A stretch of 64,000 nt of DNA from Acidobacteriota bacterium. GTDB taxonomy: Bacteria > Acidobacteriota > UBA6911 > RPQK01 > CBDAPI01. Under the pieces are notes generated by a model, which was given only the letters and a program-made list of their open reading frames with translations, did no database searches and was not told where the DNA came from. Below, in pieces: positions 40,517-55,818 of the stretch. Position 1 is the first letter of the stretch. The number at the start of each line of letters is the position of its first letter. A program made the translations under genes and the position numbers. The stretch lies in contig CBDBHK010000033.1 of assembly GCA_965205615.1 (NCBI GenBank), forward strand, positions 102,822 to 166,821, in the 5' to 3' direction.

Positions 40517-41056
40517 ATGACCCTTCTTACCGCACAGGTCGCCTTCTACTACATGGCGGCCGCCAGCGTCACCAGCGCGATCCTGGCCGTGACGCGGAGG
40601 AGTCCCGTCCACAGCATGCTCTGGGTGCTGGCCCTCTTTCTGCACGTGGCGGGAATCTTTCTGCTGCTGGGCGCGGAGTTCCTGGCGGCCGTCCAGGTCA
40701 TCGTGTATGCCGGAGCCATCCTGGTCTTTTATCTCTTTGTCCTGATGTTGCTCGACTTACCGGGCGAGGAGGCCCGGCCCCGCTTTGGCGCCCACTGGCC
40801 TCTGGCGGCTGCCGTGGGCCTGGGATTCGGGCTGCTGGCCTGGCTGGCCCTGGTCGGGACTTTCGACCCGGTAGGAGCCGGGATTGCAGAGGCTGCTCCG
40901 TCAGGCCAGGGAGAAGGTCCGCCACTGGGAAGTCTTGCGCAGGTGGGCAGGGCACTTTTCGGTCCGTTCGCACTGCCCTTTGAAATGGCCTCTCTGATCC
41001 TTCTGGCCGCCATCGTGAGCGCGGTCGTGCTGGCCAGAAGGAGGGCAGAACGATGA
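40517..41056 (+). CDS. nuoJ: NADH-quinone oxidoreductase subunit J
   Basis: 179 aa, five TM segments, NuoJ/ND6-like. First gene of the membrane-arm block. Confidence 0.75.
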   Translation: MTLLTAQVAFYYMAAASVTSAILAVTRRSPVHSMLWVLALFLHVAGIFLLLGAEFLAAVQVIVYAGAILVFYLFVLMLLDLPGEEARPRFGAHWPLAAAVGLGFGLLAWLALVGTFDPVGAGIAEAAPSGQGEGPPLGSLAQVGRALFGPFALPFEMASLILLAAIVSAVVLARRRAER

Positions 41057-41358
41057 TCGTCCCGGTGGGCGTGGTTCTGGCCCTGAGTGCGGTCCTCTTC
41101 GGGATCGGAGTATTCGGCTTTCTGGCCCGCCGCAACCTGATCCTGATGCTGGTTTCGATCGAGGTCATGCTCAATGCCGTCAACCTCAGCCTGGCCGGAT
41201 TCAGCCGTCACTTCAATGATCCAACCGGGCAGGTCCTGGCCCTTTTCGTGATCGCGGTGGCGGCGGCGGAAGCCGGGGTGGGTCTGGGGCTCGTGATCGC
41301 TCTGAACCGGAACAAGCCGGGGGCCAGTGTGACGGACCTGACCGATCTCAAATGGTGA
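41053..41358 (+). CDS. nuoK: NADH-quinone oxidoreductase subunit K
   Basis: 101 aa, three TM helices with conserved Glu residues (SIEVMLNAVNL, AAAEAGVGLGL). Confidence 0.8.
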   Translation: MIVPVGVVLALSAVLFGIGVFGFLARRNLILMLVSIEVMLNAVNLSLAGFSRHFNDPTGQVLALFVIAVAAAEAGVGLGLVIALNRNKPGASVTDLTDLKW

Positions 41359-41377
41359 GGGCAGTGGAGGCGGCACA

Positions 41378-42838
41378 TTGAGTTCGATCACACCGCTTCT
41401 GGCCGTGCTGGTTTCTGCCCTGGGTGCACTCCTGATTGCCTTCACGGGCCGGCGTCGCGCCAATCTGAGAGAGTTCTGGTCGGTTGCCGCCGGTGTGGCG
41501 ATGTTCGCCCTGGTCGCCAGCATGATCCCGGAGGTTCTGGCCGGCGGCACGCCGGAATGCAAGCTCTTCAGCCTTCTTCCCGGCATTGAGCTCGCTTTTC
41601 GAGTGGATGCCTTCGGTCTCCTCTTTGCCCTGGGGGCCTCGCTCCTGTGGATCCTGACCTCGTTCTATTCGATTGGTTACATGCGTTCCCTCAAAGAGCA
41701 CGCGCAAACCCGCTATTTTGCCTGTTTCGCCCTGGCCCTCTCTGCCACCCTGGGGGTGGCCTTCTCGGCCAACCTGTTCACCCTGTTTCTGTTTTACGAG
41801 GGCCTGACCCTGGTCACCTACCCCCTGGTGGGTCACAAGGAGACCGCCGAAGCCAGGGCCGGCGCCCGCAAGTACGTCATCTATCTTCTGGGCGCCGCCA
41901 AGGTGCTTCTCATCGCTGCCATCATCCTGATCTACAACGTGGCCGGAACCCTGGAGTTCCGCCTGGGCGGGATCCTGCCGTTTGAGGAGGTGACCGCGCA
42001 GCCCCGGCTTCTCTATCTCATTTTCGCGCTGTTCCTGTTCGGATTTGCCAAAAACGCGCTTGTCCCCCTGCACGGGTGGCTGCCGGCGGCTATGGTGGCT
42101 CCCACCCCCGTGAGCGCTTTGCTGCACGCCGTGGCCGTGGTTAAAACCGGCGTGTTTTCCACGCTTCGGGTCTTTCTGTTTATTTTCGGCGCCGACGCCA
42201 TGCGCGAGATCGGCGCCGACCACCTGGCGCTGGGAGCCGCCTCGATAACCATCCTGGTCGGTTCGCTGCTCGCCCTGGGACAGGATAATCTCAAGGCCCG
42301 GCTGGCCTTTTCGACGGTGAGCCAGCTCTCCTACATCATCCTGGGAGCGGCGCTCCTGAACCAGAGCGGGATCCTGGGCGGGGTCTCCCACATCACGAAC
42401 CACGCCGTATCAAAGATCACGCTTTTTCTGTGCGCCGGCTCCATTTACGTGTCCACGCACAAGACCAAGATCAGCCAGATGTCCGGACTGGCCAGGCGTA
42501 TGCCCTGGACCATGGCGGCGTTTGCGGTGGCTTCGCTGAGCATAGTGGGCATTCCCGGTACCTCCGGGTTCGTCTCCAAGTGGTACCTGGCCCTGGGCTC
42601 GCTGGAGCTGCACAGCCTGGCCCTCCTGGGCGTACTTCTGATCAGCTCGCTTCTGAACGCAGCCTACCTTGGCCCGGTCGTGTACAAAGCCTATTTTGAA
42701 GAGGCGCCCCCCACTCACGAGGAGGTCCGCGAGGTTCCCTGGATGGTTGCGCCCCTGGCCATCAGCGCGGCAGCCAGCCTGCTCCTGGGCCTGTACCCGG
42801 CCCCGGTGCTGGAACTGGCCGGAAGGGCCGTACCGTGA
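41378..42838 (+). CDS. Additional NuoL/MrpA-like antiporter-type subunit (486 aa, no long C-terminal helix), extra to the canonical L, M, N set
   Basis: 14-TM antiporter core. FLFYEG (TM5 Glu). FAKNALVPLHGWLPAAMVAPTPVSALLHAVAVVKTG resembles NuoL/MrpA ([26 protein letters not shown]), but the LPDA aspartate is Ala. Lies between nuoK and the 589-aa nuoL. Confidence 0.7.
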   Translation: MSSITPLLAVLVSALGALLIAFTGRRRANLREFWSVAAGVAMFALVASMIPEVLAGGTPECKLFSLLPGIELAFRVDAFGLLFALGASLLWILTSFYSIGYMRSLKEHAQTRYFACFALALSATLGVAFSANLFTLFLFYEGLTLVTYPLVGHKETAEARAGARKYVIYLLGAAKVLLIAAIILIYNVAGTLEFRLGGILPFEEVTAQPRLLYLIFALFLFGFAKNALVPLHGWLPAAMVAPTPVSALLHAVAVVKTGVFSTLRVFLFIFGADAMREIGADHLALGAASITILVGSLLALGQDNLKARLAFSTVSQLSYIILGAALLNQSGILGGVSHITNHAVSKITLFLCAGSIYVSTHKTKISQMSGLARRMPWTMAAFAVASLSIVGIPGTSGFVSKWYLALGSLELHSLALLGVLLISSLLNAAYLGPVVYKAYFEEAPPTHEEVREVPWMVAPLAISAAASLLLGLYPAPVLELAGRAVP

Positions 42839-43098
42839 ACTTCCTGGAGAGGCAGCTCGAAAACCCGGTCCGTCTGGCCCGTATCAAGCGCTGGTTCTAC
42901 CTGGGCCTGGTCGTCGTCGCTGTGGGGGAAATCGTTCTGCCCAGGGTACTTCACGGTTCCCACCCCCATTTCTGGTTCGAGGGCTTTCCCGCCTGGGGAT
43001 CTCTCTACGGATTGGCTTCCTGCGTGGCGATCATCGTCGTGTCCAAGCTGATCGGGAAAGTGTGGCTGATGCGCCGGGAAGACTATTATGACTCTTGA
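42835..43098 (+). CDS. Small 2-TM membrane protein encoded between the extra antiporter subunit and nuoL
   Basis: 87 aa. GTG start overlaps the stop of the upstream gene (GTGA). Its stop overlaps the nuoL ATG (ATGA). Two hydrophobic helices (WFYLGLVVVAVGEIVLP; LYGLASCVAIIVVSKLIG). High third-position GC consistent with coding. Confidence 0.55.
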   Translation: MNFLERQLENPVRLARIKRWFYLGLVVVAVGEIVLPRVLHGSHPHFWFEGFPAWGSLYGLASCVAIIVVSKLIGKVWLMRREDYYDS

Positions 43099-44857
43099 GT
43101 GGGTGCATCCTGGACTAGTGCTGATCCTGGGAGCCTGGGTCCTGCCCTTCCTCAAAGGCCGGGCCAGGAGCCTGGCCATGCTCCTGCTTCCTGCGGCGGC
43201 ACTCGGCATCTGCCTGCGCATGACGCCGGGTATCTACGGCGCAGTGAGTTTCCTCGGACAAGACCTGGTGTTTGGCCGGGTGGACCAGTTGAGCCTGGTC
43301 TTTTCCTACGTTTTCTCGATCATGGCGTTCCTGGGGATGGTCTACGCGCTGCATGTCCAGGATAATGCCCAGCACGTGGCGGCCCTGACCTATGGGGGGG
43401 GCGCGCTGGGGGTCACGTTTGCCGGGGACTTCCTCTCCCTGCTCGTGTTCTGGGAACTCATGGCCCTCTCCTCGGCACTTCTGGTCTGGCAGCGCCGCCA
43501 GACGGCCGCCCTGGCAGCCGGTTTCCGTTATCTGCTGGTCCACGTCGTGGGCGGGCTCCTTCTCCTGGCGGGGATCGTGCTCCACTGGTCTCAGACCGGG
43601 TCGATTGCCTTCGAGGACATGGGCACTCTTGCGGGCGGCATGGCCTGGACCCTCATCCTCGTCGCCTTTCTCATCAACGCGGCCGTCCCACCTCTGGGCG
43701 CCTGGCTTCCGGACGCCTACCCCGAGGCCACGGTTACGGGCGCGGTTTTCATGACCGCCTTTACCACCAAGTCGGCGGTCTACGTCTTGATCCGCGGATT
43801 TCCCGGGACGGAGCTCCTGGTGTGGCTGGGAGCCATCATGGCCGTCTACGGCGTCGTCTACGCCGTGCTGGAAAACGACGCGCGGCGGCTCCTGGCCTAC
43901 CACATCGTCAGCCAGGTCGGTTACATGGTGTGCGGGGTGGGAATCGGGACCTCTCTGGCTCTAAACGGCGCCACGGCCCACGCTTTCGCACACATCCTCT
44001 ACAAGGGGCTTCTTTTCATGGGTGCCGGCGCTGTCCTGGAGGTGACCCGACTGCGAAAGCTGAGCGACATGGGAGGGCTCTACAAGACCATGCCGATCAC
44101 CCTTGGTCTTTACATGGTCGGCGCCTTCGCCATTTCGGCCGTGCCGCTCTTCAGCGGCTTCGTGAGTAAGTCGATGGTCGTGTCAGCCGCCGGCGAGGCT
44201 CACCTCGGACTGATCTTTCTCATGCTCACTCTCGCCTCTGCCGGGACGTTCCTGCACACGGGTCTCAAGCTTCCCTACTACATGTTCTTCGCCAAGGATT
44301 CAGGCCGGCGAGCCCAGGAACCTCCCCGCAATATGCTCCTGGCCATGGGCCTGGCTGCGACAGCGTGCATTGTGATCGGAGTGTTCCCGGGCCTCCTCTA
44401 CCGGCATCTGCCCAACCCGGTGGACTATGCCCCCTATACCCTGCAGCACGTCACCAGCACCCTGGGGATGCTGGGCTTTACGGCGCTGGGCTTCTTCCTG
44501 CTGCTCAAGCATCTCGACCCGGAGCCCAAGATCAGCCTCGACACGGACTGGTTTTATCGCCGGGGTGCGGCGGTCTTCATGATGGTCGTACAGAGGCCAC
44601 TGGCGCATCTGGATTCAGAGTTCGTGGGAGAGATCTATGAGTTTGTCATCCGCAAACCGGTGCTGGGCGTGGCCCGCCTCCTGCGGCAGGTCGACGCCCG
44701 GGTGGTCGATTCAGCGGCGCTGGGCGTGGGCCGTTTGACGCTGGCCTGGAGCCAGGCGTTGAAGACCACTGTCAGCGGCAACGCCCAGCATTACGGGCTG
44801 ATCATGGCGGCCGCAGTCCTGGCACTGCTCGCTCTGGCGCTAATGGCATCACCATGA
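43088..44857 (+). CDS. nuoL: NADH-quinone oxidoreductase subunit L (589 aa, with C-terminal long helix + final TM)
   Basis: FWELMAL TM5 motif, WLPDAYPEA broken-helix motif. C-terminal ~65-residue amphipathic segment followed by a last TM (YGLIMAAAVLALLALALMA) consistent with the NuoL horizontal helix. Confidence 0.7.
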   Translation: MTLEWVHPGLVLILGAWVLPFLKGRARSLAMLLLPAAALGICLRMTPGIYGAVSFLGQDLVFGRVDQLSLVFSYVFSIMAFLGMVYALHVQDNAQHVAALTYGGGALGVTFAGDFLSLLVFWELMALSSALLVWQRRQTAALAAGFRYLLVHVVGGLLLLAGIVLHWSQTGSIAFEDMGTLAGGMAWTLILVAFLINAAVPPLGAWLPDAYPEATVTGAVFMTAFTTKSAVYVLIRGFPGTELLVWLGAIMAVYGVVYAVLENDARRLLAYHIVSQVGYMVCGVGIGTSLALNGATAHAFAHILYKGLLFMGAGAVLEVTRLRKLSDMGGLYKTMPITLGLYMVGAFAISAVPLFSGFVSKSMVVSAAGEAHLGLIFLMLTLASAGTFLHTGLKLPYYMFFAKDSGRRAQEPPRNMLLAMGLAATACIVIGVFPGLLYRHLPNPVDYAPYTLQHVTSTLGMLGFTALGFFLLLKHLDPEPKISLDTDWFYRRGAAVFMMVVQRPLAHLDSEFVGEIYEFVIRKPVLGVARLLRQVDARVVDSAALGVGRLTLAWSQALKTTVSGNAQHYGLIMAAAVLALLALALMASP

Positions 44858-46317
44858 CAGACTACCCGGTCCTGACCGTTACAACCTTTCTGCCCCTGGC
44901 GGGCGCGGTAGCCATCTTGTTTCTGGGCGGCGCGCGGCAGGCACGCTGGATCGCCCTGGCCACAACCCTTGCCACCCTGGCGGTCTCAGCCCCTCTCTAC
45001 AGAGGATTCGACAAGTCGTCGAGCGCACTGCAGTTCGTCGAGTCCTCAGACTGGATCCCGGGGTGGAATATCTCCTACGAGATGGGCGTGGACGGAATCA
45101 GTCTTCCCTTTATTTTCCTTGCGGCTGTCTTGAGTGTCCTCTGCGTGGGCGGTTCGTGGACTGCGGTGGACTCGAGAGTGAAAGAATTCTACGCTGCGCT
45201 GCTGGTTGCCGAAACCGCCATGATCGGGCTCTTCGCCGCCACCAATTTATTTATCTTCTATATTTTCTGGGAGCTGATGATCGTTCCTCTTTTCCTGCTC
45301 ATCGGAGTCTGGGGAGGCCCGGGGCGAGTCTACGCGGCGGTCAAGTTTCTGCTCTTCACCCTGGCCGGAAGCGTTTTGATGCTGGTGGGCATGGTTGCCC
45401 TCTACCACGCCTGCGGCACGCTGAACTTCAAGGAGCTGGCGGCCACCACCCTTCAGCCCGCCTTTCAGGCCGGGCTCTTCGCGGCCTTTCTGGCGGCGTT
45501 TGCGGTGAAGGTTCCCATGTTCCCGGTGCACACCTGGCTCCCGGATGCTCACACGGAGGCCCCGACCGCCGGGAGCGTGATCCTGGCCGGGATCCTCCTC
45601 AAAATGGGCGCCTACGGGTTCCTGCGGGTTTCGCTTCCCATCCTTCCCGACGCCGTACAGCTTTTTCTGACGCCCATGCTGGTGATCTCGGCAGTGGCTA
45701 TCGTGTATGGCGCCTACGTGACTCTGGTCCAGACAGACGTCAAACGCCTCATCGCTTTTTCGAGCGTGAGCCACATGGGCTTCGTCACCCTGGGAATCTT
45801 CACTCTCAACCACAACGGGGTGGAAGGGGCCATCCTGCAGATGATCAACCACGGGATCATCTCCGCGGCGCTGTTCCTGTGCGTGGGCATGATCTACGAG
45901 CGAACCCACTCGCGGGAAATCAAGGACTACGGGGGGGTCGCCAGGATCGCGCCGGTCTACTCGTCCCTGCTGGCGTTCTTTTGCCTGGCCGCCGCGGGTT
46001 TCCCCGGTTTGAACTCCTTCGTGGGAGAGTTCCTGATTATCAGCGGGGCCTTCCAGACCAGGCCCTGGCTCGGCGCCATGGCTGTCTGGGGAGTAGCCCT
46101 GGGGACAGCTTACCTGGTCTGGCTCTACTACCGGGTGGCCATGGGCCGGACGAACTCCGGGCTGGAGGGACTCAAGCTCGAGCTCAATGCCCGCGAGGTG
46201 GCGACTCTGGCCCCTCTGGCGTTGCTGGCACTCTGTCTGGGGCTCTACCCTGAGCTCGTCCTTTCCTATCTTCGTGCTCCCGTGGCCGAACTCCTGGCTG
46301 GAGGAGTAACGCCATGA
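44854..46317 (+). CDS. nuoM: NADH-quinone oxidoreductase subunit M
   Basis: 487 aa. FYIFWELMIVPLFLLIG and HTWLPDAHTEAPTAGSVILAGILLKMGAYG are NuoM hallmarks. Confidence 0.85.
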   Translation: MTDYPVLTVTTFLPLAGAVAILFLGGARQARWIALATTLATLAVSAPLYRGFDKSSSALQFVESSDWIPGWNISYEMGVDGISLPFIFLAAVLSVLCVGGSWTAVDSRVKEFYAALLVAETAMIGLFAATNLFIFYIFWELMIVPLFLLIGVWGGPGRVYAAVKFLLFTLAGSVLMLVGMVALYHACGTLNFKELAATTLQPAFQAGLFAAFLAAFAVKVPMFPVHTWLPDAHTEAPTAGSVILAGILLKMGAYGFLRVSLPILPDAVQLFLTPMLVISAVAIVYGAYVTLVQTDVKRLIAFSSVSHMGFVTLGIFTLNHNGVEGAILQMINHGIISAALFLCVGMIYERTHSREIKDYGGVARIAPVYSSLLAFFCLAAAGFPGLNSFVGEFLIISGAFQTRPWLGAMAVWGVALGTAYLVWLYYRVAMGRTNSGLEGLKLELNAREVATLAPLALLALCLGLYPELVLSYLRAPVAELLAGGVTP

Positions 46318-47735
46318 AGGGTGCGAGCCTGGCTGACCTGGCCTTACTCTGGCCGGAGCTGATTCTGTGCGCGGTGGCCCTGGCTCTGATCCTGGTGGCG
46401 CGCCGGATTCAGAAAGCGCCACCGGCCGCCGCCCTCACGGTTCTCGCAGCGCTGGCCGCCGGACTGGCCTCGGCCTGGGTCCTGGCCCCGGGTCCCCGGA
46501 CCGGGTTTGGCGGTATGATCACCGTGGACGGCTACTCTCAGTTCTTCAAGGTGTTGATCGCCGGGGCCCTGGCCCTGGCTGCGCTTCTGTCCGTGAAACG
46601 AGTCGACACCGATCATGTTCGGCCCGCCGAGTACCATGCCCTGCTCCTTCTGGCCTCGACGGGCATGATGTTGGCCGTCTCAGCCCTGGATCTCCTGACC
46701 CTCTACCTGGGCCTGGAACTCATGACGCTCTGCTCGTACAGCCTGGTCGGCGTCACGGTGGAAAAACAGAGATCGAACGAAGCTGCGATCAAGTATTTCC
46801 TGCTGGCCTCTTTCGCCTCGGCCCTTCTCCTCTACGGCATAGCTGTGGTCTATGGAGTAACGGGCTCTACGGGCTTTACGGCCATTGCCTCGACGCTGTC
46901 TGCGGGCAGTCCGGGGAGCTATCAAATCCTCCTGGCTGCGATCGGTCTGGTGGCCGCGGGACTCGCCTTTAAGATTGCGGCGGTTCCCTTTCATGCCTGG
47001 GCGCCCGACGCCTACCAGGGTGCCAGCGCGCCCGTTGCCGCCTTTCTGGCGGCCGCCTCCAAGGCCGCTGGTTTAGCCGCGCTGGGCCGCGTCTACCTGG
47101 TCGCCTTCGCCTCTCAAGCCCTTGTCCTGTCGGTGGTTCTAGCCGGGCTGGCAGCGCTCTCCATCGTCGTGGGGAGCATCATCGCCCTGGCCCAGACCGA
47201 CATGAAACGCCTGTTGGCGTATTCCTCGATTTCTCATGCGGGATACGCCCTTCTCGGCTTTATGTCCGGATCGGCCGAAGGGGCAGCGGCAACCATGACC
47301 TATGCCTTTCTCTATGTCTTCATGACGCTGGGAGCCTTCGGGATCGTTGTCGCACTGGGCCGGCGCGGCGAGAGTCTCGAAGGTTACCGCGGCCTGGCCG
47401 CGCAGCGACCCGCAACGGCCGCGCTGATGCTGCTTTTCCTCCTTTCCCTGACCGGCATCCCACCCACGGCCGGGTTCGCCGCCAAATTCGTCGTCATCCT
47501 CAGTGCTGTGCGCGCCGGCTATGTGGCGCTGGCAGTCCTGGCCGTGGCTTGTAGTGTGATCTCGGCCTTCGTCTACCTGCGGGTGGCCGTGTTCATGTAC
47601 ATGAGAAAACCCCGGGAGCCTGAGCCTTCCCGCTACCCGCTGGCCGTGTCGGCTGCGCTGGCGGTGGCTGCGCTGGTCACTGTAATCGGCGGAATCTTTC
47701 CGGGTAGTCTCAGCTTCTGGACGGTGGCGCCATGA
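46314..47735 (+). CDS. nuoN: NADH-quinone oxidoreductase subunit N
   Basis: 473 aa. HAWAPDAYQGASAPVAAFLAAASKAAG matches the NuoN TM7 motif. Confidence 0.85.
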   Translation: MKGASLADLALLWPELILCAVALALILVARRIQKAPPAAALTVLAALAAGLASAWVLAPGPRTGFGGMITVDGYSQFFKVLIAGALALAALLSVKRVDTDHVRPAEYHALLLLASTGMMLAVSALDLLTLYLGLELMTLCSYSLVGVTVEKQRSNEAAIKYFLLASFASALLLYGIAVVYGVTGSTGFTAIASTLSAGSPGSYQILLAAIGLVAAGLAFKIAAVPFHAWAPDAYQGASAPVAAFLAAASKAAGLAALGRVYLVAFASQALVLSVVLAGLAALSIVVGSIIALAQTDMKRLLAYSSISHAGYALLGFMSGSAEGAAATMTYAFLYVFMTLGAFGIVVALGRRGESLEGYRGLAAQRPATAALMLLFLLSLTGIPPTAGFAAKFVVILSAVRAGYVALAVLAVACSVISAFVYLRVAVFMYMRKPREPEPSRYPLAVSAALAVAALVTVIGGIFPGSLSFWTVAP

Positions 47736-47789
47736 GGGCGAAAGACATCATGATTCAGGGCACCAACTCGGGATCCGGGGGCGTCGCCA

Positions 47790-47823
47790 TGCTGTGTATA
47801 ATTGGAGTTTGGTAAGGGAGTTC
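47790..47823 (+). promoter_or_regulatory. Candidate internal promoter / RBS between nuoN and nuoA (TATAAT at 47797-47802; aagggag RBS)
   Basis: ctgtgtataattggagtttggtaagggagttcATG read in the 88-bp nuoN-nuoA gap. Confidence 0.4.
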
Positions 47824-48177: not shown

Positions 48178-48682
48178 CATGCTGACCGATAAGCTGTTTC
48201 TGACCAGTCGCCTCGATGAGGCTCTGGGTTGGGCGCGCAAGTTTTCCATCTTTCAGTACCCGTTTGTTACCGCGTGCTGCGGCATGGAATATATGGCCAC
48301 GGCCTGTTCTCACTACGACGTCGACCGTTTCGGAGCCGGTTTGCCCCGATTCTCCCCGCGCCAGGCGGACGTGCTTTTCGTTGTGGGCACAATCAGTCAC
48401 AAAATGGCGCCGGTCCTGGAACGCATCCACGAGCAGATGGCCGAGCCCAAATGGGTTGTCGCTTTCGGGGTCTGCACCTGCACGGGTGGCTTCTACGACA
48501 ACTACGCAACCGTGATGGGTATTGACACGATCATACCCGTGGACGTCTACATACCGGGTTGCCCTCCGCGGCCGGAAAACGTTATTGACGGGCTGATGAA
48601 GCTCCAGGACAAAATTCAGGACGAGCACTCCAGCGGCCGCCGATCCGCACCCGAGAGTCGTCCGGACGTTTTGACAGAATGA
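48178..48682 (+). CDS. nuoB: NADH-quinone oxidoreductase subunit B
   Basis: CCGMEYMATA, GVCTCTGG, PGCPPRP: the N2 cluster cysteines of NuoB. Confidence 0.9.
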
Positions 48683-49260
48683 GTATCTCCACTCTCATTG
48701 AGTCTGTCAGCGACCGCTTCCCCGAGGCTGTAGCGGCTTCTCACGCTTATCGTGGCGACGAAACCGTGGTTTTGCGCCGGGAGTTCCTGGTCGAGGTCGC
48801 ACGCTTTCTCAAAGAGGACCCGTCCCTGCAAATGAACTTCCTCATGGATGTGACAGCCGTGGACTATTCTTCTTTCGGGAAGAGTTCCGCGCCGGCTTTC
48901 TTCGCATCCTCGGGTGTCGGTGTGAATCCCCTGACCCAGATCCAGGATGAGGACCCCTGGCCCGGACCCCCGGGGGATGAGCGTTTTGCGGTCGTGTACC
49001 ACTTCTATTCTCTGAAGTACAAGCACCGCCTGCGGCTGGTGGTTCCCGTGGAGGAGGGGGAGCCCGAAGTAGATTCGCTGAACTCGCTGTGGGGCGGAGC
49101 AAACTGGCTCGAGCGTGAAGTCTGGGACATGTTTGGAATCCGATTCCGTGGACATCCGGATCTCAAGCGCATTCTCATGTACGAAGAGTTCGAGGGACAT
49201 GCGCTGCGCAAGGACTACCCCGTCAATAAGCGTCAACCTTTGACCGGACCCCTGAACTGA
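48679..49260 (+). CDS. nuoC: NADH-quinone oxidoreductase subunit C
   Basis: 193 aa. NuoC motifs (ANWLEREVWDMFGIRFRGHPDLKRIL). Confidence 0.85.
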   Translation: MSISTLIESVSDRFPEAVAASHAYRGDETVVLRREFLVEVARFLKEDPSLQMNFLMDVTAVDYSSFGKSSAPAFFASSGVGVNPLTQIQDEDPWPGPPGDERFAVVYHFYSLKYKHRLRLVVPVEEGEPEVDSLNSLWGGANWLEREVWDMFGIRFRGHPDLKRILMYEEFEGHALRKDYPVNKRQPLTGPLN

Positions 49261-49303: not shown

Positions 49304-50680
49304 ATGATGCCCGAATCAGCCCCTCCCAGGGAGACCTCCCAACACGAGGCCGCGGACCTCGAGACCCGGGACATGATGCTCAACATCGGCCCCGCCCACC
49401 CGGCCATGCACGGGATCGTCAGGATCGTGGCGGAACTCGACGGGGAGCAGATCCAGGAAGCTGAAGTGGAGATCGGCTATCTCCACCGCGGCTTTGAGAA
49501 GATGGCGGAAGTAGTGGACTACAACGGCGTCATCCCCTACACCGATCGCCTCAACTACGTCTCGCCGCTCATCAACAACATGGGCTACTGCATGACCGTC
49601 GAGAAACTGCTCGGGATATCGGTCCCGGAGCGCTGCCACTACGTCAGGGTCATCACTTCGGAGATCTCCCGCATCTCGGACCATCTCACTTGCGTGGGAG
49701 CGACGGCCATGGAGCTGGGCGCTTTCAGCGTTTTCCTCTACATGATCAAGGCCCGGGAGTATCTCTGGGAGCTGGTGGAGATGGTCACCGGGGCGCGCCT
49801 GACGGTCAGCTACTGTCGCGTCGGCGGCGTGAAGGCCGACCTTCCCGAGGACTTTGCCGAGGGTTGTCGCAAGGCCTTCGAGGAAACCCGCAAGGTCCTG
49901 GACGAGGCCTCCGGTCTGCTGACGCGCAACCGGATTTTCACCGACCGAATGAACGACACGGGAGTGATCTCGGCGGAAGACGCCATCTCCTACGGCATCA
50001 CCGGCCCCTTTCTGCGCGCCAGTGGCGCCGACTATGACGTTCGGAAGGACTGCCCCTACTCCGTCTACGACCGGATCCCTTTCGATGTGCCCGTCGGAAC
50101 CCGTGGCGACAACATGGATCGCTACCTGGTTCGCATGGAGGAGATGGAGCAGTCCATGCGCATCGTGGAGACGGCGCTGCGAGATCTGCCTTCCGGCCCG
50201 GTTCAGGTCCACCCGGAGACGGGTCGGCCGATTCCGGCCGCGGAGATGGTGGATCTTGCCAAGGTGGGTGACATCGCGGCCATTTCGGGCGGAAGCGCCA
50301 TCACCGGTCCAACCCTGGAGGGATCCGGCCGCGACCGGTATCCATCCATAGCCACGGACGAAAAACGCGCCTTCCTCCCTCCCAAAGAGGATACCTATGG
50401 CAACATCGAGGGACTCATGCACCACTTTAAGCTGGTCATGTACGGCCACGGTGTGCGGCCGCCCAGGGGAGAGGTGTACTTCCCCGTCGAGGGAGCTAAC
50501 GGAGAACTCGGGTTTTACGTGGTGAGCGATGGAGCGGGGACCGCCTACCGGGTTCGGGTTCGTCCCCCCTGCTTCGCCATTATGTCGGCCCTGCCCGAGC
50601 TTGTGGTGGGCGATATGATGGCCGACCTGGTCCCCACCTTCGGGTCCGTCAATATGATCGGAGGAGAGCTCGACCGATGA
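49304..50680 (+). CDS. nuoD: NADH-quinone oxidoreductase subunit D
   Basis: MMLNIGPAHPAMHGIVRIV...IGYLHRGFEK...RPPCFA is canonical NuoD/49-kDa. Alternative start at 49373 is likely. Contains a ~40-aa insertion relative to compact NuoD. Confidence 0.85.
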   Translation: MMPESAPPRETSQHEAADLETRDMMLNIGPAHPAMHGIVRIVAELDGEQIQEAEVEIGYLHRGFEKMAEVVDYNGVIPYTDRLNYVSPLINNMGYCMTVEKLLGISVPERCHYVRVITSEISRISDHLTCVGATAMELGAFSVFLYMIKAREYLWELVEMVTGARLTVSYCRVGGVKADLPEDFAEGCRKAFEETRKVLDEASGLLTRNRIFTDRMNDTGVISAEDAISYGITGPFLRASGADYDVRKDCPYSVYDRIPFDVPVGTRGDNMDRYLVRMEEMEQSMRIVETALRDLPSGPVQVHPETGRPIPAAEMVDLAKVGDIAAISGGSAITGPTLEGSGRDRYPSIATDEKRAFLPPKEDTYGNIEGLMHHFKLVMYGHGVRPPRGEVYFPVEGANGELGFYVVSDGAGTAYRVRVRPPCFAIMSALPELVVGDMMADLVPTFGSVNMIGGELDR

Positions 50681-52476
50681 AGCTTTCCGATCTTGAGCCC
50701 GGGGCCAGAGAGATCCTGCAACGCTACGAACGATCCAGGGCGGCTATGTTGCCGGTGTTGTGGCTCGTCCAGGAAAACCAGGGGTACGTCTCTCAGGAGG
50801 CGGAGGTCTGGGTGGCGAGCATCCTGAGTGTAGCCCGTGCCCAGGTACGCGAGGCGGTCTCCTTTTACAACATGTTCCACACACGGCCGGTGGGCCGTCG
50901 CGAGCTTCGAGTGTGCACCAGTCTGCCCTGTATGTTGCGGGGTGCCGGGGAGTTACTGGAGCAGATTCAGGAGCGCTGGAAGATTCGTCCGGGCCAGACC
51001 ACGGCAGGTGGGGAGGTCACGCTCACCGAGGTCGAGTGTCTCTGTGCCTGCGAGATGTCCCCTATGGCCCAGCTCGACGAAGCTTTTCTCGGGCCCCTGG
51101 AGAGAGGGACACTGGAAACCGTCCTGCGGGCCGGGCTCGAGGATCCCGAAGATTCGCGACCCCTTTCCGAGCCTGAGCCCTATATCTCCACAGACGGTCC
51201 GGTGCTTTCCACGCGCTTCGAGAACCCGGCCGGAATCTGGTTGCAAGACTACGTGACCGACAATGGGTATGAGGGCGCTGCCAGGGCTCTCACTTCCATG
51301 ACACCGGAGCAGGTGATCGAGGAGATATCCGGAGCCAACTTGCGGGGTCTCGGCGGCGCGGGGTTTCCAGCCGGCAGAAAATGGTCCTTCGTGCCCAGGG
51401 AATCGCAAAAGCCCAAGTTCCTGGTGGCGAACGCAGACGAAGGGGAACCGGGCACTTTCAAGGATCGCTACATCATGGAGCGCGACCCGCACGCACTCAT
51501 CGAAGGCATGATTATTGCCGCCTATGCCATCGGGAGTCACAAGGCCTACGTGTATATTCGGGGCGAGTACTTCCGGTCGGCCAGGCGTTTACAACGCGCC
51601 CTCGATGAAGCCTACAGCCAGGGCTGGCTGGGTAAGGATATCCAGGGGTCCGGTTTTGATCTGGATGTGGTCATTCACCGGGGCGCGGGGGCCTATATCT
51701 GCGGCGAAGAAACCGCGCTCCTGACTTCGCTCGAGGGCGGGAAGGGTTTCCCCAAGCTCAAGCCTCCGTTCCCCGCCATTTCGGGTCTCTTTCAATGCCC
51801 GACCATCGTCAACAACATTGAGACTCTCGCCTGTGTCCCATTCATTCTGAACCATGGAGCCGAGCGTTTTGCCGGCATTGGCACGGACCGGCAGGGCGGT
51901 ACGCGGCTCTTTTGCGTGAGCGGACATGTGGTCCGACCGGGGGTCTATGAGGAGCCGGTCGGCATCACCCTGAGAGAACTGATCGAGAAGGCGGGGGGTG
52001 TCCGGGACGGCAAGAGGCTCAAGGCCGTCATCCCCGGAGGCATTTCGGCCAAAATTCTGACCGCCGATGAGATTGACGTGGCCATGGACTTTGACTCCCT
52101 GATGGCGGCCGGCAGCATGGCCGGATCGGGGGGAGTGATCGTGATGGACGAGAGCACCTGCATGGTCGAGGCACTCGACTCCGCGGCCCGGTTTTTCGCC
52201 GACGAGTCGTGCGGACAATGCTCGCCCTGCCGTGAGGGTACGGGGTGGGTCCATCGGATTGTCCGCCGTATTGTGGAAGGCAGGGGGAACCTCCAGGATC
52301 TGGACCAGTTGCTCGCCATCGCCGGCGACATGGAAGGCAATACGATCTGCGTCTTCGCCGACGCAGCCGCCTGGCCTGTCCAGTCTTACATCGCGAAATT
52401 TCGGGACGAGTTCGAGGACTACATTCGGAGCGGCCGTGGAGCCGGGAAAAAGGAGGCCGATGCATGCCCAGCCTGA
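50677..52476 (+). CDS. nuoEF: Fused NuoE-NuoF (24-kDa 2Fe-2S subunit joined to 51-kDa FMN/NADH-binding subunit) in one 599-aa ORF
   Basis: Residues ~1-160 are NuoE (CTSLPC...VECLCACEMSP cysteine pairs). A ~90-aa linker follows. Then comes NuoF (GLGGAGFPAGRKW FMN/NADH motifs, ESCGQCSPCREG N3 cluster). No stop codon lies between them in this sequence. Confidence 0.75.
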   Translation: MKLSDLEPGAREILQRYERSRAAMLPVLWLVQENQGYVSQEAEVWVASILSVARAQVREAVSFYNMFHTRPVGRRELRVCTSLPCMLRGAGELLEQIQERWKIRPGQTTAGGEVTLTEVECLCACEMSPMAQLDEAFLGPLERGTLETVLRAGLEDPEDSRPLSEPEPYISTDGPVLSTRFENPAGIWLQDYVTDNGYEGAARALTSMTPEQVIEEISGANLRGLGGAGFPAGRKWSFVPRESQKPKFLVANADEGEPGTFKDRYIMERDPHALIEGMIIAAYAIGSHKAYVYIRGEYFRSARRLQRALDEAYSQGWLGKDIQGSGFDLDVVIHRGAGAYICGEETALLTSLEGGKGFPKLKPPFPAISGLFQCPTIVNNIETLACVPFILNHGAERFAGIGTDRQGGTRLFCVSGHVVRPGVYEEPVGITLRELIEKAGGVRDGKRLKAVIPGGISAKILTADEIDVAMDFDSLMAAGSMAGSGGVIVMDESTCMVEALDSAARFFADESCGQCSPCREGTGWVHRIVRRIVEGRGNLQDLDQLLAIAGDMEGNTICVFADAAAWPVQSYIAKFRDEFEDYIRSGRGAGKKEADACPA

Positions 52477-54101
52477 CCATCAACGGGCGTGAGACCACGG
52501 TTCCTGACGGAACCACGGTTATCCAGGCGGCCGAGAAGATGGGAATCTTCGTTCCCCGCTACTGCTATCATCCCGGGCTCTCTATCGCGGGCAACTGCCG
52601 CATCTGCCTCGTCGAAGTGGAAAAATTCCCCAAGCTCCAGATTGCCTGTAACCTGCCGGCCACGGAGGGGATGGTCGTGCACACCCTGAGCGACAAAGCC
52701 GAGGCCGGCCGCCGCGCCGTACTGGAGTTTCTGCTTGCCAACCACCCTCTGGACTGCCCGGTCTGCGACCAGTCCGGTGAGTGTGACCTGCAGAACTTCT
52801 ACATGAACTTCGGGCTCTACGACCCGCGCTTCAGGGAGCACAAAGTCAAGAAGCGAAAAGCCGTTGAAATAGGTCCGCATGTCATGCTGGATCAGGAACG
52901 CTGTATCCTCTGCTCCCGCTGTGTCCGCTTTACCGACGAGATCACGCGGACCGGGGAGTTCGGGATCTTTAACCGCGGAGACCGGGCTGAGCTGGGTCTG
53001 TGCCCCGACGAGGTGCTCGACAATCCCTACTCGGCCAACGTGGTGGACATCTGCCCGGTGGGGGCCCTGACCGAGGCTGATTTCCGTTTCAAGGCCAGGG
53101 TCTGGTACCTCTCCAGCGCTCCCACGGTATGCAACGGGTGCAGCCAGGGCTGTAACATGGATCTCCACTTTGTGCTCGACAGACCCCACCTGAACGACGG
53201 GGCACGGGTGGTGCGCATCAAGCCCCGTCCCAACCCGGATGTCAACCAGTGGTGGCTGTGCGATGAAGGGCGCTACGGCTTTGACTGGGTCGACCGGGAT
53301 CGCCTGGACAAGGTACGCGGCCCGTCGCCGGACGCGACCTGGGAGCGGGCCCTTACAGAGATCTCACTCGCCCTGGCCGGGTTGCGCCGGGAGGGAGCCG
53401 CAGCCCGGGAAGGGGCAGACTGTCGGATCGGCGTCATCGCTTCGGCCCAACTCACCACCGAGGAGCTCTTTTTGATCCGGGAAATCTTTCAGACCGCCCT
53501 GGGCGCCCGGGTGACGGCCCTGGTTCCTGAGGAACCGGGAACCAGCGATGACTTCCTGATCAAGGCGGATAAGAATCCGAATACCGCGGGTGCAACTCTG
53601 CTGGGCCTGGCCGGCCCGGACTCGCCGGAAGCCCGCCAGCTGGTGGACGAAGCGCTGGGCGGAACCCTCGACGTTCTGTGGGTCTTCGGGCACGATCTGG
53701 TGCGACCCTTCGGAGAAAAAACAGTCCGGCGACTGTCGGAGCAAGTGCCTCTCTTCGTGTTCTCGGGAACCAACAAAAATGCCACCGCGGCTCTGGCACA
53801 CTGGGTGCTTCCCACCGCAGCCTACATGGAGAAGGACGGGACCTTTGTGAACTGCCATGGCCGCGTCCAGCGCATCGGTTGCGCTTTTCCGCCTCTCGCG
53901 GACTCCCGGGAAGAGTGGCGCATTCTCCTGGAGGTGGCCACGAAGCTGGGTCTGTCTTTCGATTGGCGGAAACCGGAGGAGATCTTTGGGGGGATGAGCA
54001 GGACCTTGGCGCCTTTTCAGGGATTGAGTTATGCAAGGATCGGGGCCCAGGGGGTTGACCTGGGGACGGCCCAGCCCCCGGCCGGGAGGGCTGCACCATG
54101 A
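52464..54101 (+). CDS. nuoG: NADH-quinone oxidoreductase subunit G (short, 545-aa form)
   Basis: Starts at ATG 52464 (MPSLTINGRETTVPDG), overlapping the nuoEF end. 2Fe-2S CRICLVEV, HPLDCPVCDQSGEC, CILCSRCVRF, CPVGAL cluster motifs. Confidence 0.85.
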   Translation: MPSLTINGRETTVPDGTTVIQAAEKMGIFVPRYCYHPGLSIAGNCRICLVEVEKFPKLQIACNLPATEGMVVHTLSDKAEAGRRAVLEFLLANHPLDCPVCDQSGECDLQNFYMNFGLYDPRFREHKVKKRKAVEIGPHVMLDQERCILCSRCVRFTDEITRTGEFGIFNRGDRAELGLCPDEVLDNPYSANVVDICPVGALTEADFRFKARVWYLSSAPTVCNGCSQGCNMDLHFVLDRPHLNDGARVVRIKPRPNPDVNQWWLCDEGRYGFDWVDRDRLDKVRGPSPDATWERALTEISLALAGLRREGAAAREGADCRIGVIASAQLTTEELFLIREIFQTALGARVTALVPEEPGTSDDFLIKADKNPNTAGATLLGLAGPDSPEARQLVDEALGGTLDVLWVFGHDLVRPFGEKTVRRLSEQVPLFVFSGTNKNATAALAHWVLPTAAYMEKDGTFVNCHGRVQRIGCAFPPLADSREEWRILLEVATKLGLSFDWRKPEEIFGGMSRTLAPFQGLSYARIGAQGVDLGTAQPPAGRAAP

Positions 54102-55192
54102 TGGAAGTTCTGATCATCAAGGTGGCGCTGGCCGGCGTCGTTTTTTTCGGGATCTTGAACTTCGCAGGGTTTCACACCTGGGTGGAGCGCAAACAGTCGG
54201 CCCTGATCCAGGACCGGATCGGTGCCAATCGGGCCTCGATCTTCGGATTCCGGGCGCTGGGACTTTTCCACGGCCTGGCCGATGTGCTCAAGATGTTCAC
54301 CAAAGAGGACATCGTCCCCACAGGGGCCGACAGGACGCTCCACACCCTGGCCCCGCTGTTCTCGGTGTTTTTTGCTCTGGTGGCCTTTGCCGCGATCCCT
54401 TTTGGAGACCGCCTCATCCTGGGCGACGGTCTGGTTATCGACCTGCAGGTGGCCAAGATCGACGCGGCTCTGCTCTATGTCTTCGCCATGCTCTCGCTCG
54501 GGGTCTACGGCGTGATTCTGGCCGGCTTCGCCTCGGGCAGCAACTACGCCATCATCGGGGGGCTGAGAGCCATGGCGCAGATGATCTCCTACGAGATCGC
54601 CCTGGGCATTGCCGTTGTCGGAGTGATCATGGTCTATGGGACCATGGATCTGGGTGAACTGGTGCGGGGCCAGGGGTACCTGATCGGCGGGTGGATCCCC
54701 TTCTGGGGCTTTCTCGCCCAGCCGGTCGCCTTCTTCATCTTCGTGACGGCGGCCCTGGCTGAAACCAAGCGACTTCCCTTCGACCTGCCGGAAGGCGAGT
54801 CGGAGATTATCGGATACTTTGTGGAGTACAGCGGCATGAAGTTCGGGATGTTTTTCCTCACGGATTTCCTGGAAACCATCATGGTCGCCTGTCTGGCCAC
54901 AACGCTTTTCTTCGGCGGCTGGCAGGTGCCTTTTCTGATGCCGGACGGTTTCCACTTCCCCTGGGGGGCACAGCTGCCGGTTCCCCATTTGATGTATGTG
55001 CTTCTCGGGGTGGCCAGCTTTTCAACCAAGGTCGTGATTTTCTGCTGGTTCTTCATGCAACTGCGCTGGACCCTGCCGCGCTTCCGCTACGACCAGCTCA
55101 TGAGTCTGGGCTGGAAGGGGCTCTTTCCCATCGCAGTGGCGAACGTGGTGGTGACAGCCGTAGTGCTGGTCTTTTTCGGGGAGGCGTCGTGA
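54098..55192 (+). CDS. nuoH: NADH-quinone oxidoreductase subunit H
   Basis: 364 aa. NuoH/ND1 motifs (SGSNYAIIGGLRAMAQMISYEI, EAKRLPFDLPEGESE). Confidence 0.9.
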   Translation: MMEVLIIKVALAGVVFFGILNFAGFHTWVERKQSALIQDRIGANRASIFGFRALGLFHGLADVLKMFTKEDIVPTGADRTLHTLAPLFSVFFALVAFAAIPFGDRLILGDGLVIDLQVAKIDAALLYVFAMLSLGVYGVILAGFASGSNYAIIGGLRAMAQMISYEIALGIAVVGVIMVYGTMDLGELVRGQGYLIGGWIPFWGFLAQPVAFFIFVTAALAETKRLPFDLPEGESEIIGYFVEYSGMKFGMFFLTDFLETIMVACLATTLFFGGWQVPFLMPDGFHFPWGAQLPVPHLMYVLLGVASFSTKVVIFCWFFMQLRWTLPRFRYDQLMSLGWKGLFPIAVANVVVTAVVLVFFGEAS

Positions 55193-55818
55193 TGGCCGTA
55201 AAAGTAGTCAGCAGACCCGAATTGACTTTCTGGGAAAAGCTCTACGTTCCGCAGATCCTGTGCGGCCTCAAAATCACCTCGGCCCATTTCTTCCGAAATC
55301 TTTTTCTTCACATCCTCCACCTCATCGGTCGCTTCAAGCATCTGCCCGCCTCGGTGACGATTCAATACCCCGATGAGCTGAGGCCGCTCATGTCGCGCTT
55401 CCGCAGTCGCCACCGGCTCACTCTGCGCGAGGATGACACCCCGCGCTGTGTGGGGTGCATGCTTTGCGAGACCGTCTGCCCGGCCAAATGCATCACGATC
55501 GTGCCCGGCGAGCACCCCGATCCCCACATCGAGAAGTATCCAATCCGCTTCGACATCGACCTGGGGATTTGCGTTTACTGCGGGTACTGCGTCGAGGCCT
55601 GCCCGGAGGACGCCATCCGAATGGACACAGGTATCCTCGACATCGCGGCCTACTCCAGGGAAGCAATGCAACTGGACATCCATGAGCTCATGGACCCGAA
55701 GTTACGGAAGCCGATCAAGGACTGCAGCCTGGAGTTCCCCCACCAGTGCGAGCTGCACGGTGGAGACATGAAGGGCAGCTGGGAAGCGGTGGATGGCTCG
55801 GTGGGACAAAAAGCCTAG
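55189..55818 (+). CDS. nuoI: NADH-quinone oxidoreductase subunit I (with ~50-aa C-terminal extension)
   Basis: Two 4Fe-4S ferredoxin motifs (CVGCMLCETVCP, CVYCGYCVEACP). 209 aa, longer than typical NuoI. Confidence 0.85.
   Translation: MMAVKVVSRPELTFWEKLYVPQILCGLKITSAHFFRNLFLHILHLIGRFKHLPASVTIQYPDELRPLMSRFRSRHRLTLREDDTPRCVGCMLCETVCPAKCITIVPGEHPDPHIEKYPIRFDIDLGICVYCGYCVEACPEDAIRMDTGILDIAAYSREAMQLDIHELMDPKLRKPIKDCSLEFPHQCELHGGDMKGSWEAVDGSVGQKA

What the first reader, a model, noticed from the sequence alone, without database searches (positions are those of the whole stretch)
40517..55818. Circularly permuted nuo gene order: nuoJKLMN block placed upstream of nuoABCD(EF)GHI, with a promoter-like element in the nuoN-nuoA gap
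The usual order is A through N. Here the membrane-arm genes J-N come first, followed after an 88-bp gap carrying TATAAT and an RBS by A-I. An IS1380 copy sits immediately after nuoI. This implies either two operons brought into tandem or a rearrangement, possibly IS-mediated. The peripheral-arm genes probably have their own promoter. nuoG is a short 545-aa form, and nuoI carries a C-terminal extension.
Basis: partly seen in the sequence, partly recalled or inferred. Interest (0 to 1): 0.5.

Follow-up and report, generated by a model that had tools for sequence, protein, structure and literature searches.

The report
Known 'green' complex I gene cassette
The unusual nuo gene order is real, but it is the fixed layout of an already described complex I variant ("green complex I") in which two Mrp-type subunits replace NuoL, not a local rearrangement caused by the nearby insertion sequence.

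Summary
The order nuoJ-K…M-N followed by nuoA-B-C-D-EF-G-H-I is in the window as stated, with an 88-bp N–A gap carrying TGTATAAT and an RBS.

Its place holds a 486-aa MrpD-like gene, a conserved 87-aa two-helix gene, and a 589-aa NuoL/MrpD-like gene with the lateral helix. That makes four antiporter-like subunits.

The same order occurs in all 80 related loci from Acidobacteriota, Planctomycetota and Gemmatimonadota. It also occurs on Sinorhizobium and Rhizobium megaplasmids, where it is published as "green complex I".

The IS1380 copy lies 122 bp past nuoI. It is absent from that site in three of the four sibling-strain contigs recovered, and all four keep the same nuo order.

The two-unit idea has comparative support:
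- A −10-like box (TGTAnnnT) sits before nuoA in 42 of 66 distinct gaps, against about 5 expected.
- In about 10% of genomes the cluster is split exactly at the N|A junction.

The fused nuoEF, short nuoG and long nuoD are typical of this clade. This is a new member of a known kind, of modest interest.

The parts
39862..40311 (+). CBS-pair domain protein gene, a frequent companion of the cassette
   Evidence: Pfam CBS 8.5e-27. A homologue lies within 1.5 kb upstream of nuoJ in about 28 loci. In the S. meliloti cluster one sits next to nuoI.
40517..41056 (+). nuoJ
   Evidence: PF00499 1.3e-38; NF005164
41053..41358 (+). nuoK
   Evidence: PF00420 1.1e-27; NF004320 at 105 bits, above its cutoff
41378..42838 (+). 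MrpD1-like antiporter-like subunit (486 aa). It has no lateral helix and carries the full set of NuoL-type channel residues.
   Evidence: PF00361 1.3e-55 plus a weak Proton_antipo_N match. NF006236 at 652 bits, just below the 663 cutoff. Channel residues: TM5 Glu, TM7 Lys, TM8 HxxxHxxxK, TM12 Lys. Best solved relatives are MbhH and MbsH.
42835..43098 (+). 87-aa conserved protein with two predicted transmembrane helices; a cassette-specific small subunit candidate
   Evidence: No Pfam or NCBIfam family. Present at this position in all 80 loci, with median identity 73%. An 84-aa homologue sits at the same place in S. meliloti. Its start overlaps the previous gene and its end overlaps the next.
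43088..44857 (+). MrpD2-like / NuoL-like antiporter-like subunit (589 aa) with a C-terminal lateral helix and TM16. The TM7 Lys is replaced by Asn.
   Evidence: NF009310 at 750 bits (cutoff 564). It is colinear with NuoL models to their last residues. The C-terminus aligns to the lateral helix and TM16 of NdhF. The 'L[LI]NAAVPPLGAWLPD' motif is present in 72 of 81 relatives and in S. meliloti.
44854..46317 (+). nuoM (TM12 Glu)
   Evidence: TIGR01972 at 584 bits; the 'SFVGEF' motif
46314..47735 (+). nuoN
   Evidence: TIGR01770 at 406 bits
47736..47823 (+). N-A intergenic gap holding a -10-like box TGTATAAT (47795-47802) and the RBS AAGGGAG (47814-47820)
   Evidence: Sequence. The box is unique in the window. 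It is conserved as TGTAnnnT in 42 of 66 gaps. There is no terminator and no unusual RNA fold (z = 0.23).
47824..48177 (+). nuoA (117 aa, ATG start)
   Evidence: PF00507 2.3e-35. The gene call in the sibling contig gives 117 aa. The aligned position is a start codon in nearly all relatives.
48179..48682 (+). nuoB
   Evidence: NF005012 at 208 bits, above its cutoff; start taken
48679..49260 (+). nuoC
   Evidence: TIGR01961 at 128.7 bits
49304..50680 (+). nuoD (458 aa, with an insertion)
   Evidence: TIGR01962 at 470 bits, matched in two stretches. The length of about 457 aa is conserved in relatives.
50677..52476 (+). nuoEF fusion (599 aa)
   Evidence: NuoE domain at residues 11-151 and NuoF at 177-583. 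The fusion is conserved at about 597 aa in 58 loci.
52464..54101 (+). nuoG, short form (545 aa)
   Evidence: TIGR01973 at 421 bits, below the 470 cutoff. Relatives span 531-549 aa, against 853 aa in S. meliloti.
54098..55192 (+). nuoH
   Evidence: PF00146 9e-102
55192..55818 (+). nuoI (208 aa) with N- and C-terminal extensions
   Evidence: The TIGR01971 core covers residues 54-163. Alignment with S. meliloti NuoI is.
55941..57664 (+). IS1380-family element, 122 bp downstream of nuoI. It is variable between strains and is not part of the cassette.
   Evidence: NF033539 at 309 bits. Terminal inverted repeats CCCGCATAGATCACC. A second copy lies at 13623-15384 on the - strand, and the element is absent from this site in three sibling contigs.

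Best explanation
The region is a complete cassette for the 'green complex I' type of NADH:quinone oxidoreductase. In this type the single NuoL is replaced by two Mrp-type antiporter-like subunits: MrpD1-like (486 aa) and MrpD2-like (589 aa, which carries the lateral helix). A conserved 87-aa two-helix protein is encoded between them. The membrane-arm genes (J, K, MrpD1, small ORF, MrpD2, M, N) are encoded ahead of A-B-C-D-E-F-G(-H-I).

The order is an old, fixed property of the cassette and has nothing to do with the neighbouring IS1380.

Inferred: the enzyme oxidises NADH through the fused NuoEF and the short NuoG, and reduces quinone at NuoB/D/H. It couples this to ion translocation through N, M and the MrpD-type pair. 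The MrpD2-like lateral helix has canonical length, so it probably clamps only M and N, which would leave MrpD1 (with the small protein) at the distal tip.

Inferred: the two halves are semi-independent transcription units. A conserved -10-like box about 20 nt before nuoA gives the A-I block its own start, in addition to read-through from J-N.
For: Gene content and order are shown.

Conservation of the order:
- All 80 genome loci share the order, with 73-86% median identity per subunit.
- S. meliloti plasmid pB carries J, K, an MrpD-family gene, a hypothetical 84-aa gene, 'Na+/H+ antiporter D', M, N, a gap, then A-G, with a CBS gene alongside. The MrpD2-like protein is 61% identical to the window's.

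Literature:
- It is also described as having a 'peculiar rearrangement of gene order' (PMC7415380).

Anatomy:
- The lateral helix has canonical length.
- Start/stop overlaps link all genes within each half.

Internal start:
- TGTAnnnT occurs in 42 of 66 gaps against 4.7 +/- 2.1 expected. In 21 of the 42 it lies 17-23 nt before the nuoA start. It is not enriched before nuoJ (1 of 75).
- The junction is split or carries insertions in L006, L010, L011, L018, L030, L057 and L063.

IS1380 is irrelevant to the order.
Against: - There are no transcript data, so the promoter is inferred from conservation alone.
- The loci are related to one another, so the motif counts are not independent.
- The sigma-70 scan finds no -35 partner.
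- The S. meliloti gap (215 bp) does not show the same box.
- The subunit arrangement and the number of ions pumped are untested.
- The MrpD2-like subunit lacks the TM7 lysine in every member. This argues against simply counting it as an extra pump.
- The primary papers on green complex I and on the 2M complex could not be read here. The family definition is therefore second-hand, supplemented by my own comparison with the rhizobial locus.
Confidence: 0.8

Rival explanations
1. A canonical nuoA-N operon was locally cut and re-joined, possibly by the adjacent IS1380, which placed J-N ahead of A-I in this genome.
For: An IS1380 copy lies 122 bp after nuoI and a second copy is in the window. The region downstream of nuoI is rich in mobile elements.
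Against: The same order is found in 80 of 80 related loci from three phyla and in rhizobia. Sibling strains without IS1380 at this site have the identical order. There is no nuoL to be 'permuted'.
Confidence: 0.02
2. The cassette is one polycistronic operon driven only from upstream of nuoJ or the CBS gene. On this reading the conserved TGTAnnnT box in the N-A gap is not a promoter. It would be a regulator-binding site, a processing site or a translation-initiation context.
For: There is no terminator in the gap and no -35 match. Many gaps are only 28-65 nt long. TGTACA-like cores are palindromic, as operators often are. The E. coli nuo operon is cited as tolerating changes in gene order (Oppermann et al. 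2022, cited in PMC12361115).
Against: The invariant positions (T, A... T, preceded by TG) are those of a -10 element (established knowledge of sigma-70 promoters). The spacing to the start codon clusters at about 20 nt. The A-I block persists after 4-6 kb insertions or physical separation from J-N, which requires an independent start there. The gap has no unusual RNA structure.
Confidence: 0.3
3. The MrpD2-like subunit is mainly a scaffold that supplies the lateral helix, and the MrpD1-like subunit does the work of NuoL. The complex would then still have three working antiporter-like pumps rather than four, or the pair would move a different ion.
For: TM7 Lys is replaced by Asn, the neighbouring His is lost, and the TM7b 'PTPxSALxHA' motif is degenerate in the 589-aa protein in the relatives examined and in S. 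meliloti. The 486-aa protein keeps every canonical residue.
Against: The 589-aa protein keeps the TM5 Glu, the TM8 His/His/Lys and the TM12 Lys. The published interpretation counts four pumps (PMC9040806). No structure or stoichiometry is available.
Confidence: 0.3
4. The three genes between nuoK and nuoM form an independent Mrp-type cation/proton antiporter that merely sits inside the nuo cluster.
For: NCBIfam and source annotations name both large proteins Na+/H+ antiporter subunit D.
Against: No MrpB, E, F or G genes are present, and nuoL is absent, so the lateral helix can only come from the 589-aa protein. The genes overlap nuoM and follow nuoK by 19 nt. The arrangement is invariant in 80 loci.
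Confidence: 0.03

Closest known systems
Green complex I of Rhizobium/Sinorhizobium (Degli Esposti & Martinez-Romero 2016, as described in PMC9040806 and PMC7415380)
   Same: Both have two MrpD-like subunits plus a small hypothetical gene in place of nuoL. J-N is encoded ahead of A-G, with a gap at N|A. The MrpD2-like lateral helix has no insertion, and TM7 carries Asn. A CBS-domain gene is adjacent. Identity is 61% for the MrpD2-like protein.
   Different: In the window nuoE and nuoF are fused, nuoG is 545 aa rather than 853, and nuoD is about 50 aa longer. nuoH-I follow nuoG on the same strand, whereas in S. meliloti they are inverted. The host is Acidobacteriota and the locus appears chromosomal. 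The N-A gap is 88 bp with a TGTATAAT box, against 215 bp without it.
2M complex I of Nitrospira and others (Chadwick et al. 2018; known here only through citing papers)
   Same: It also has four antiporter-like subunits in a complex I cassette.
   Different: The 2M type gains a second NuoM and a roughly 26-aa insertion in the NuoL lateral helix. Here there is one NuoM, no NuoL, and a lateral helix of canonical length.
Complex_I_3 of 'Ca. Manganitrophaceae' (PMC9040806)
   Same: It uses green-type MrpD1 and MrpD2 in place of NuoL.
   Different: It has two NuoM (five pumps in all) and a 26-aa insertion in the MrpD2 lateral helix. Neither feature is present here.
Canonical 14-gene nuoA-N operon (E. 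coli, Thermus, Paracoccus)
   Same: All core functions are present (A-D, E, F, G, H-K, M, N). M and N are canonical by NCBIfam.
   Different: The gene order differs, there is no NuoL, there are two extra genes, and E and F are fused.
MbsH/MbsH' and MbhH of archaeal MBS/MBH, and MrpA/MrpD of Mrp antiporters
   Same: These are the best solved-structure relatives of the two extra subunits (6cfw_H, 6u8y_H, 6u8y_X, 7qru_D). They form a pair in which one member has a lateral helix and the other does not.
   Different: Scores are only about 130 bits, so the relationship is distant. The remaining Mrp, Mbs and Mbh subunits are absent. Here the pair is embedded in an NADH-oxidising complex I.

Membership tests
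Green complex I | Two MrpD-like antiporter-like subunits in place of the single NuoL | tested here: met
   Genes of 486 aa and 589 aa lie between nuoK and nuoM, and no NuoL is present. The definition comes from PMC9040806.
Green complex I | Rearranged gene order, with the membrane-arm genes J-N ahead of A-G | tested here: met
   Shown. The same order is found in S. meliloti pB. [quoted passage not shown]
Green complex I | Orthology with the rhizobial cluster, gene by gene | tested here: met
   The 589-aa (MrpD2-like) protein was searched against plasmids by tblastn: about 61% identity over 96% of its length. It and the 486-aa protein then aligned end to end with their S. meliloti counterparts. 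The small ORF is conserved and the neighbours are the same.
Green complex I | MrpD2 lateral helix without the 26-aa insertion seen in 2M-type or Manganitrophus complexes | tested here: met
   The C-terminal region aligns without a gap to S. meliloti and is colinear with NuoL and NdhF models.
Green complex I | Assembly of these proteins into one NADH:quinone oxidoreductase, and its ion stoichiometry | not testable with these tools
   Needs biochemistry or cryo-EM.
2M complex I | A second nuoM gene and an insertion in the NuoL lateral helix | tested here: not met
   Only one protein has the NuoM signature (TIGR01972 at 584 bits, TM12 Glu). The lateral helix has canonical length.
Canonical nuoA-N operon | Order A to N with a single nuoL | tested here: not met
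Mrp antiporter | MrpA-G gene set, including MrpB, E, F and G | tested here: not met
   Only MrpD-like proteins and a NuoK are present. No other Mrp families appear in the Pfam or NCBIfam scans.
IS1380 family | DDE transposase matching NF033539, and terminal inverted repeats | tested here: met
   309 bits against a cutoff of 180. 15-bp inverted repeats at 55941 and 57664. Two copies are in the window.
Sigma-70-type promoter in the N-A gap | A -10 hexamer with a -35 partner, and a mapped transcript start | tested here: inconclusive
   The -10-like box is perfect and conserved across taxa. No -35 match was found. No transcript data are available.

The most novel reading that the evidence does not exclude
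In the whole green complex I family, the lateral-helix-bearing subunit has lost the TM7 lysine. A dedicated 87-aa two-helix protein is encoded between it and a fully equipped MrpD1-like pump. The enzyme may therefore not be a simple 'five-proton' machine. Instead it could be a complex I whose distal end was rebuilt: the MrpD2-like subunit serves as scaffold or half-channel, and MrpD1 plus the small protein form a new terminal ion module. Expression would be set by two semi-independent promoters, and possibly by the linked CBS-domain protein acting as a nucleotide sensor.
Probability: 0.2. Interest if true: 0.55.

Novelty: new member of a known kind. Interest (0 to 1): 0.3.

Why it matters
For genome annotation, this shows that the J-N before A-I order is a signature of the green complex I cassette and not a sign of damage or recent rearrangement. 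It also shows that the two 'Na+/H+ antiporter subunit D' genes and the small hypothetical gene inside it are complex I subunits.

The cassette turns out to be widespread and about 80% identical across Acidobacteriota, Planctomycetota and Gemmatimonadota. This extends a form known mainly from rhizobia to abundant soil and marine lineages. It matters for estimating the energy yield of their respiration.

The conserved Asn at the TM7 lysine position and the conserved box before nuoA are concrete, testable leads.

Tried and rejected
- An exact-sequence look-up of the 589-aa protein taken from the window found nothing. The identical protein P0001 did resolve to a contig.
- The primary papers (Chadwick 2018; Degli Esposti & Martinez-Romero 2016) are not held, so the definitions come from citing papers. 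Several broad literature searches returned nothing relevant.
- An expectation-maximisation motif search on the 120 nt before nuoA locked onto the conserved coding end of nuoN instead of the gap. It was replaced by regular-expression counts on gaps only, with shuffles as control.
- The sigma-70 and terminator scan gave background numbers and nothing in the gap.
- Rfam found no RNA family in the cassette, and folding the gap gave z = 0.23.
- No tRNA or rRNA is present to name the organism. Taxonomy rests on the titles of related MAG contigs.
- Structure prediction was not run. Only single chains can be modelled, no coordinates are returned, and the available alignment is shallow (more than 80% identity), so it could neither place MrpD1 nor inspect the channel.
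- Considered and rejected: that the two extra subunits are a recent duplication. They are only about 27% identical to each other.
Full report
**What is in the sequence**

ORF listing and Pfam/NCBIfam scans show a single + strand cluster from 40517 to 55818.

| Gene | Coordinates | Note |
|---|---|---|
| nuoJ | 40517-41056 | |
| nuoK | 41053-41358 | |
| 486-aa antiporter-like protein | 41378-42838 | |
| 87-aa ORF | 42835-43098 | |
| 589-aa antiporter-like protein | 43088-44857 | |
| nuoM | 44854-46317 | |
| nuoN | 46314-47735 | |
| gap | 47736-47823 | 88 bp |
| nuoA | 47824-48177 | |
| nuoB | 48179-48682 | |
| nuoC | 48679-49260 | |
| nuoD | 49304-50680 | 458 aa |
| nuoEF | 50677-52476 | fused, 599 aa |
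| nuoG | 52464-54101 | 545 aa |
| nuoH | 54098-55192 | |
| nuoI | 55192-55818 | |

Starts were checked against the gene calls of a 99.8%-identical sibling contig and by translation. Within each half the genes overlap or nearly abut. The N-A gap is the largest spacer.

**The three genes in the nuoL position**

*The 486-aa protein.*
- It scores 652 bits on NF006236 ('monovalent cation/H+ antiporter subunit D') and only about 200 bits on the NuoL and NuoM models.
- It ends after the 14-helix core.
- It carries all the canonical channel residues: TM5 Glu, TM7 Lys, TM8 HxxxHxxxK and TM12 Lys.

*The 589-aa protein.*
- It scores 750 bits on NF009310 ('Na+/H+ antiporter subunit D', cutoff 564).
- It is colinear with NuoL models to their last residues.
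- Its C-terminus aligns with the lateral helix and TM16 of cyanobacterial NdhF.
- The helix has ordinary length.
- The TM7 lysine is Asn ('L[LI]NAAVPPLGAWLPD'). The motif was found in 72 of 81 relatives, and the corresponding Asn is also present in S. meliloti.

*The 87-aa ORF.*
- It has two predicted membrane helices.
- It has a strongly conserved second half (PAWGSLYG..SC..II..SK..GK.WLMRRED.Y).
- It matches no Pfam or NCBIfam family.
- It is present at this place in every related locus.

The four antiporter-like proteins are only 26-31% identical to one another, so none is a recent duplicate. M has the NuoM-specific TM12 Glu.

**Is the order local or lineage-wide?**

A scan of one genome per species with the 589-aa protein returned 80 loci. 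They come from Acidobacteriota (Bryobacterales, Terriglobia, Vicinamibacteria, Thermoanaerobaculia, 'Marinacidobacterales'), Planctomycetota and one Longimicrobiales MAG. Mapping all fifteen window proteins onto them gives the same order everywhere: J-K-486-87-589-M-N-A-B-C-D-EF-G-H. Median identities per subunit are 73-86%.

Fused EF (about 597 aa), short G (531-549 aa) and long D (about 457 aa) are conserved in 58 loci.

**The insertion sequence**

The IS1380 element spans 55941-57664 and has 15-bp inverted repeats. A second copy lies at 13623-15384.

Four sibling-strain contigs encode an identical NuoH.
- Only one has IS1380 after nuoI.
- The other three have a 66-aa ORF plus an IS21 element there.
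- Homology to the window stops at 55940 in those three.
- All four share the nuo order.

The IS is therefore a strain-variable passenger in a hotspot for mobile elements downstream of the operon.

**Comparison with what is known**

A paper on 'Ca. [quoted passage not shown] A review adds that green complex I has a 'peculiar rearrangement of gene order' (PMC7415380).

I tested this directly. The 589-aa protein finds roughly 61%-identical genes on Sinorhizobium, Ensifer and Rhizobium megaplasmids. The annotated S. meliloti pB locus reads as follows:
- J, K, 'monovalent cation/H+ antiporter subunit D family' (487 aa), hypothetical (84 aa), 'Na+/H+ antiporter subunit D' (586 aa), M, N;
- a 215-bp gap;
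- A, B, C, D, E, F, G (853 aa);
- then, on the other strand, a CBS-domain gene, I and H.

The window is thus a member of this family. It differs from the rhizobial version in four ways:
- E and F are fused.
- G is short.
- D is long.
- H-I are colinear with the rest.

It is not a 2M complex, which would need a second NuoM and a helix insertion. It is not an Mrp antiporter either, because MrpB, E, F and G are absent. A CBS-domain gene lies just upstream of nuoJ in the window (39862-40311) and in about 28 other loci.

**The N-A junction**

The gap carries TGTATAAT (47795-47802), AAGGGAG (47814-47820) and the ATG (47824).

Evidence from the window alone is weak:
- The octamer is unique in the window, but that is not significant on its own.
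- The consensus scan finds no -35 partner and no terminator.
- The gap RNA folds no better than shuffles.

The comparative evidence is stronger:
- The surrounding gap sequence and its length (10-260 nt) diverge freely.
- Even so, a TG-TAnnnT box (TATAAT, TACAGT, TACACT, TATATT, TACAAT and others) is found in 42 of 66 distinct gaps. Shuffles give 4.7 +/- 2.1, with a maximum of 12 in 300.
- In half of those cases the box lies 17-23 nt before the aligned nuoA start.
- The box is not enriched upstream of nuoJ: 1 of 75.

The junction is also the one place where the cassette comes apart:
- 65 loci have N and A adjacent.
- 3 loci carry 4-6 kb insertions there: a group II intron reverse transcriptase in L011, a UPF0236 transposase-like gene in L063, and pntAB with other genes in L018.
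- 3 loci have no nuoA within 1.4-7 kb downstream (L006, L010, L030).
- 1 locus has A-B on the opposite strand upstream of J (L057).

This is what one expects if A-I has its own transcription start. I rate an internal promoter at about 0.55-0.6. It is inferred, not shown, and the loci are not independent samples.

**How it most likely works**

Shown: the cassette encodes a full NADH-oxidising module (EF, G), the quinone module (B, C, D, H, I), A/J/K, and four antiporter-like proteins.

Inferred:
- These assemble into one complex I.
- Because the only lateral helix has ordinary length, it probably spans M and N as in canonical enzymes. That would put the MrpD1-like subunit, perhaps tied on by the 87-aa protein, beyond it at the tip.
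- The literature counts four pumps and about five ions per NADH (PMC9040806).
- The invariant loss of the TM7 lysine in the helix-bearing subunit leaves open that this subunit is partly a scaffold and that the count is still four.

Neither reading can be settled with the tools available.

**Verdict**

Its main interpretation is wrong, and its secondary idea (two units, with an own promoter for A-I) is plausible. The feature is a new member of an already described complex I variant, and interest is modest.

Noticed in passing
L006, L007, L013, L026, L027, L063 and about 18 other loci, immediately upstream of nuoJ (for example L013:7220-7453). Not present in the window, where an intact CBS gene ends 205 bp before nuoJ.: A short ORF resembling only the C-terminal end of the CBS protein (MRRLxLGDVVNWITTEDxTIRHLEDYxSGNYPSE) is conserved across Bryobacterales, Terriglobia and some Planctomycetota. 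It often ends in an ATGA overlap with the nuoJ start. It looks like a retained, translationally coupled leader ORF derived from a truncated CBS gene.
   Followed up: partly
window 40420-40445, and the same position in L002, L003, L004, L008, L047 and L062: A conserved TCATGAGATCATGA(C/G)C element (two palindromic TCATGA hexamers) lies about 80-90 nt upstream of nuoJ in the window's closest relatives. It could be an operator or a promoter element for the J-N unit.
   Followed up: no
window 43088-44857, residue ~206 of the 589-aa protein: The TM7 lysine that is essential in NuoL-type subunits is Asn in the relatives examined and in S. meliloti. The adjacent His and the 'PTPxSALxHA' motif are also lost. 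The 486-aa partner keeps them all.
   Followed up: partly
window 55941-64000, 13623-15384 and 4532-4685: The region after nuoI is a hotspot for mobile elements: IS1380 (two copies in the window), a DDE_3 transposase ORF (57833-58774, - strand) and group II intron RNA domains (60149-60264, 60667-60742, 4532-4685). Sibling strains carry IS21, HicAB, Y1 transposase, resolvase and other elements at the same place.
   Followed up: partly
all loci L002-L081: Every subunit of the cassette is 73-86% identical (median) between Acidobacteriota, Planctomycetota and a Longimicrobiales MAG. That is far more than expected for phyla this distant. It suggests horizontal spread of the whole cassette, very strong constraint, or some mis-binned contigs.
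   Followed up: no
L018:10697-16652: In one Acidobacteria MAG, the genes for NAD(P) transhydrogenase (pntA-like and pntB) and a formamidase-family gene sit between nuoN and nuoA, that is, inside the split cassette.
   Followed up: no
window 38142-39515 (- strand) and ~39317-39403: A 457-aa ORF with no Pfam or NCBIfam match lies upstream of the CBS gene. Compared with the window, the sibling contig L001 has about 420 bp of extra sequence and an 87-bp overlap of alignments here, which indicates an indel or repeat polymorphism between strains.
   Followed up: no
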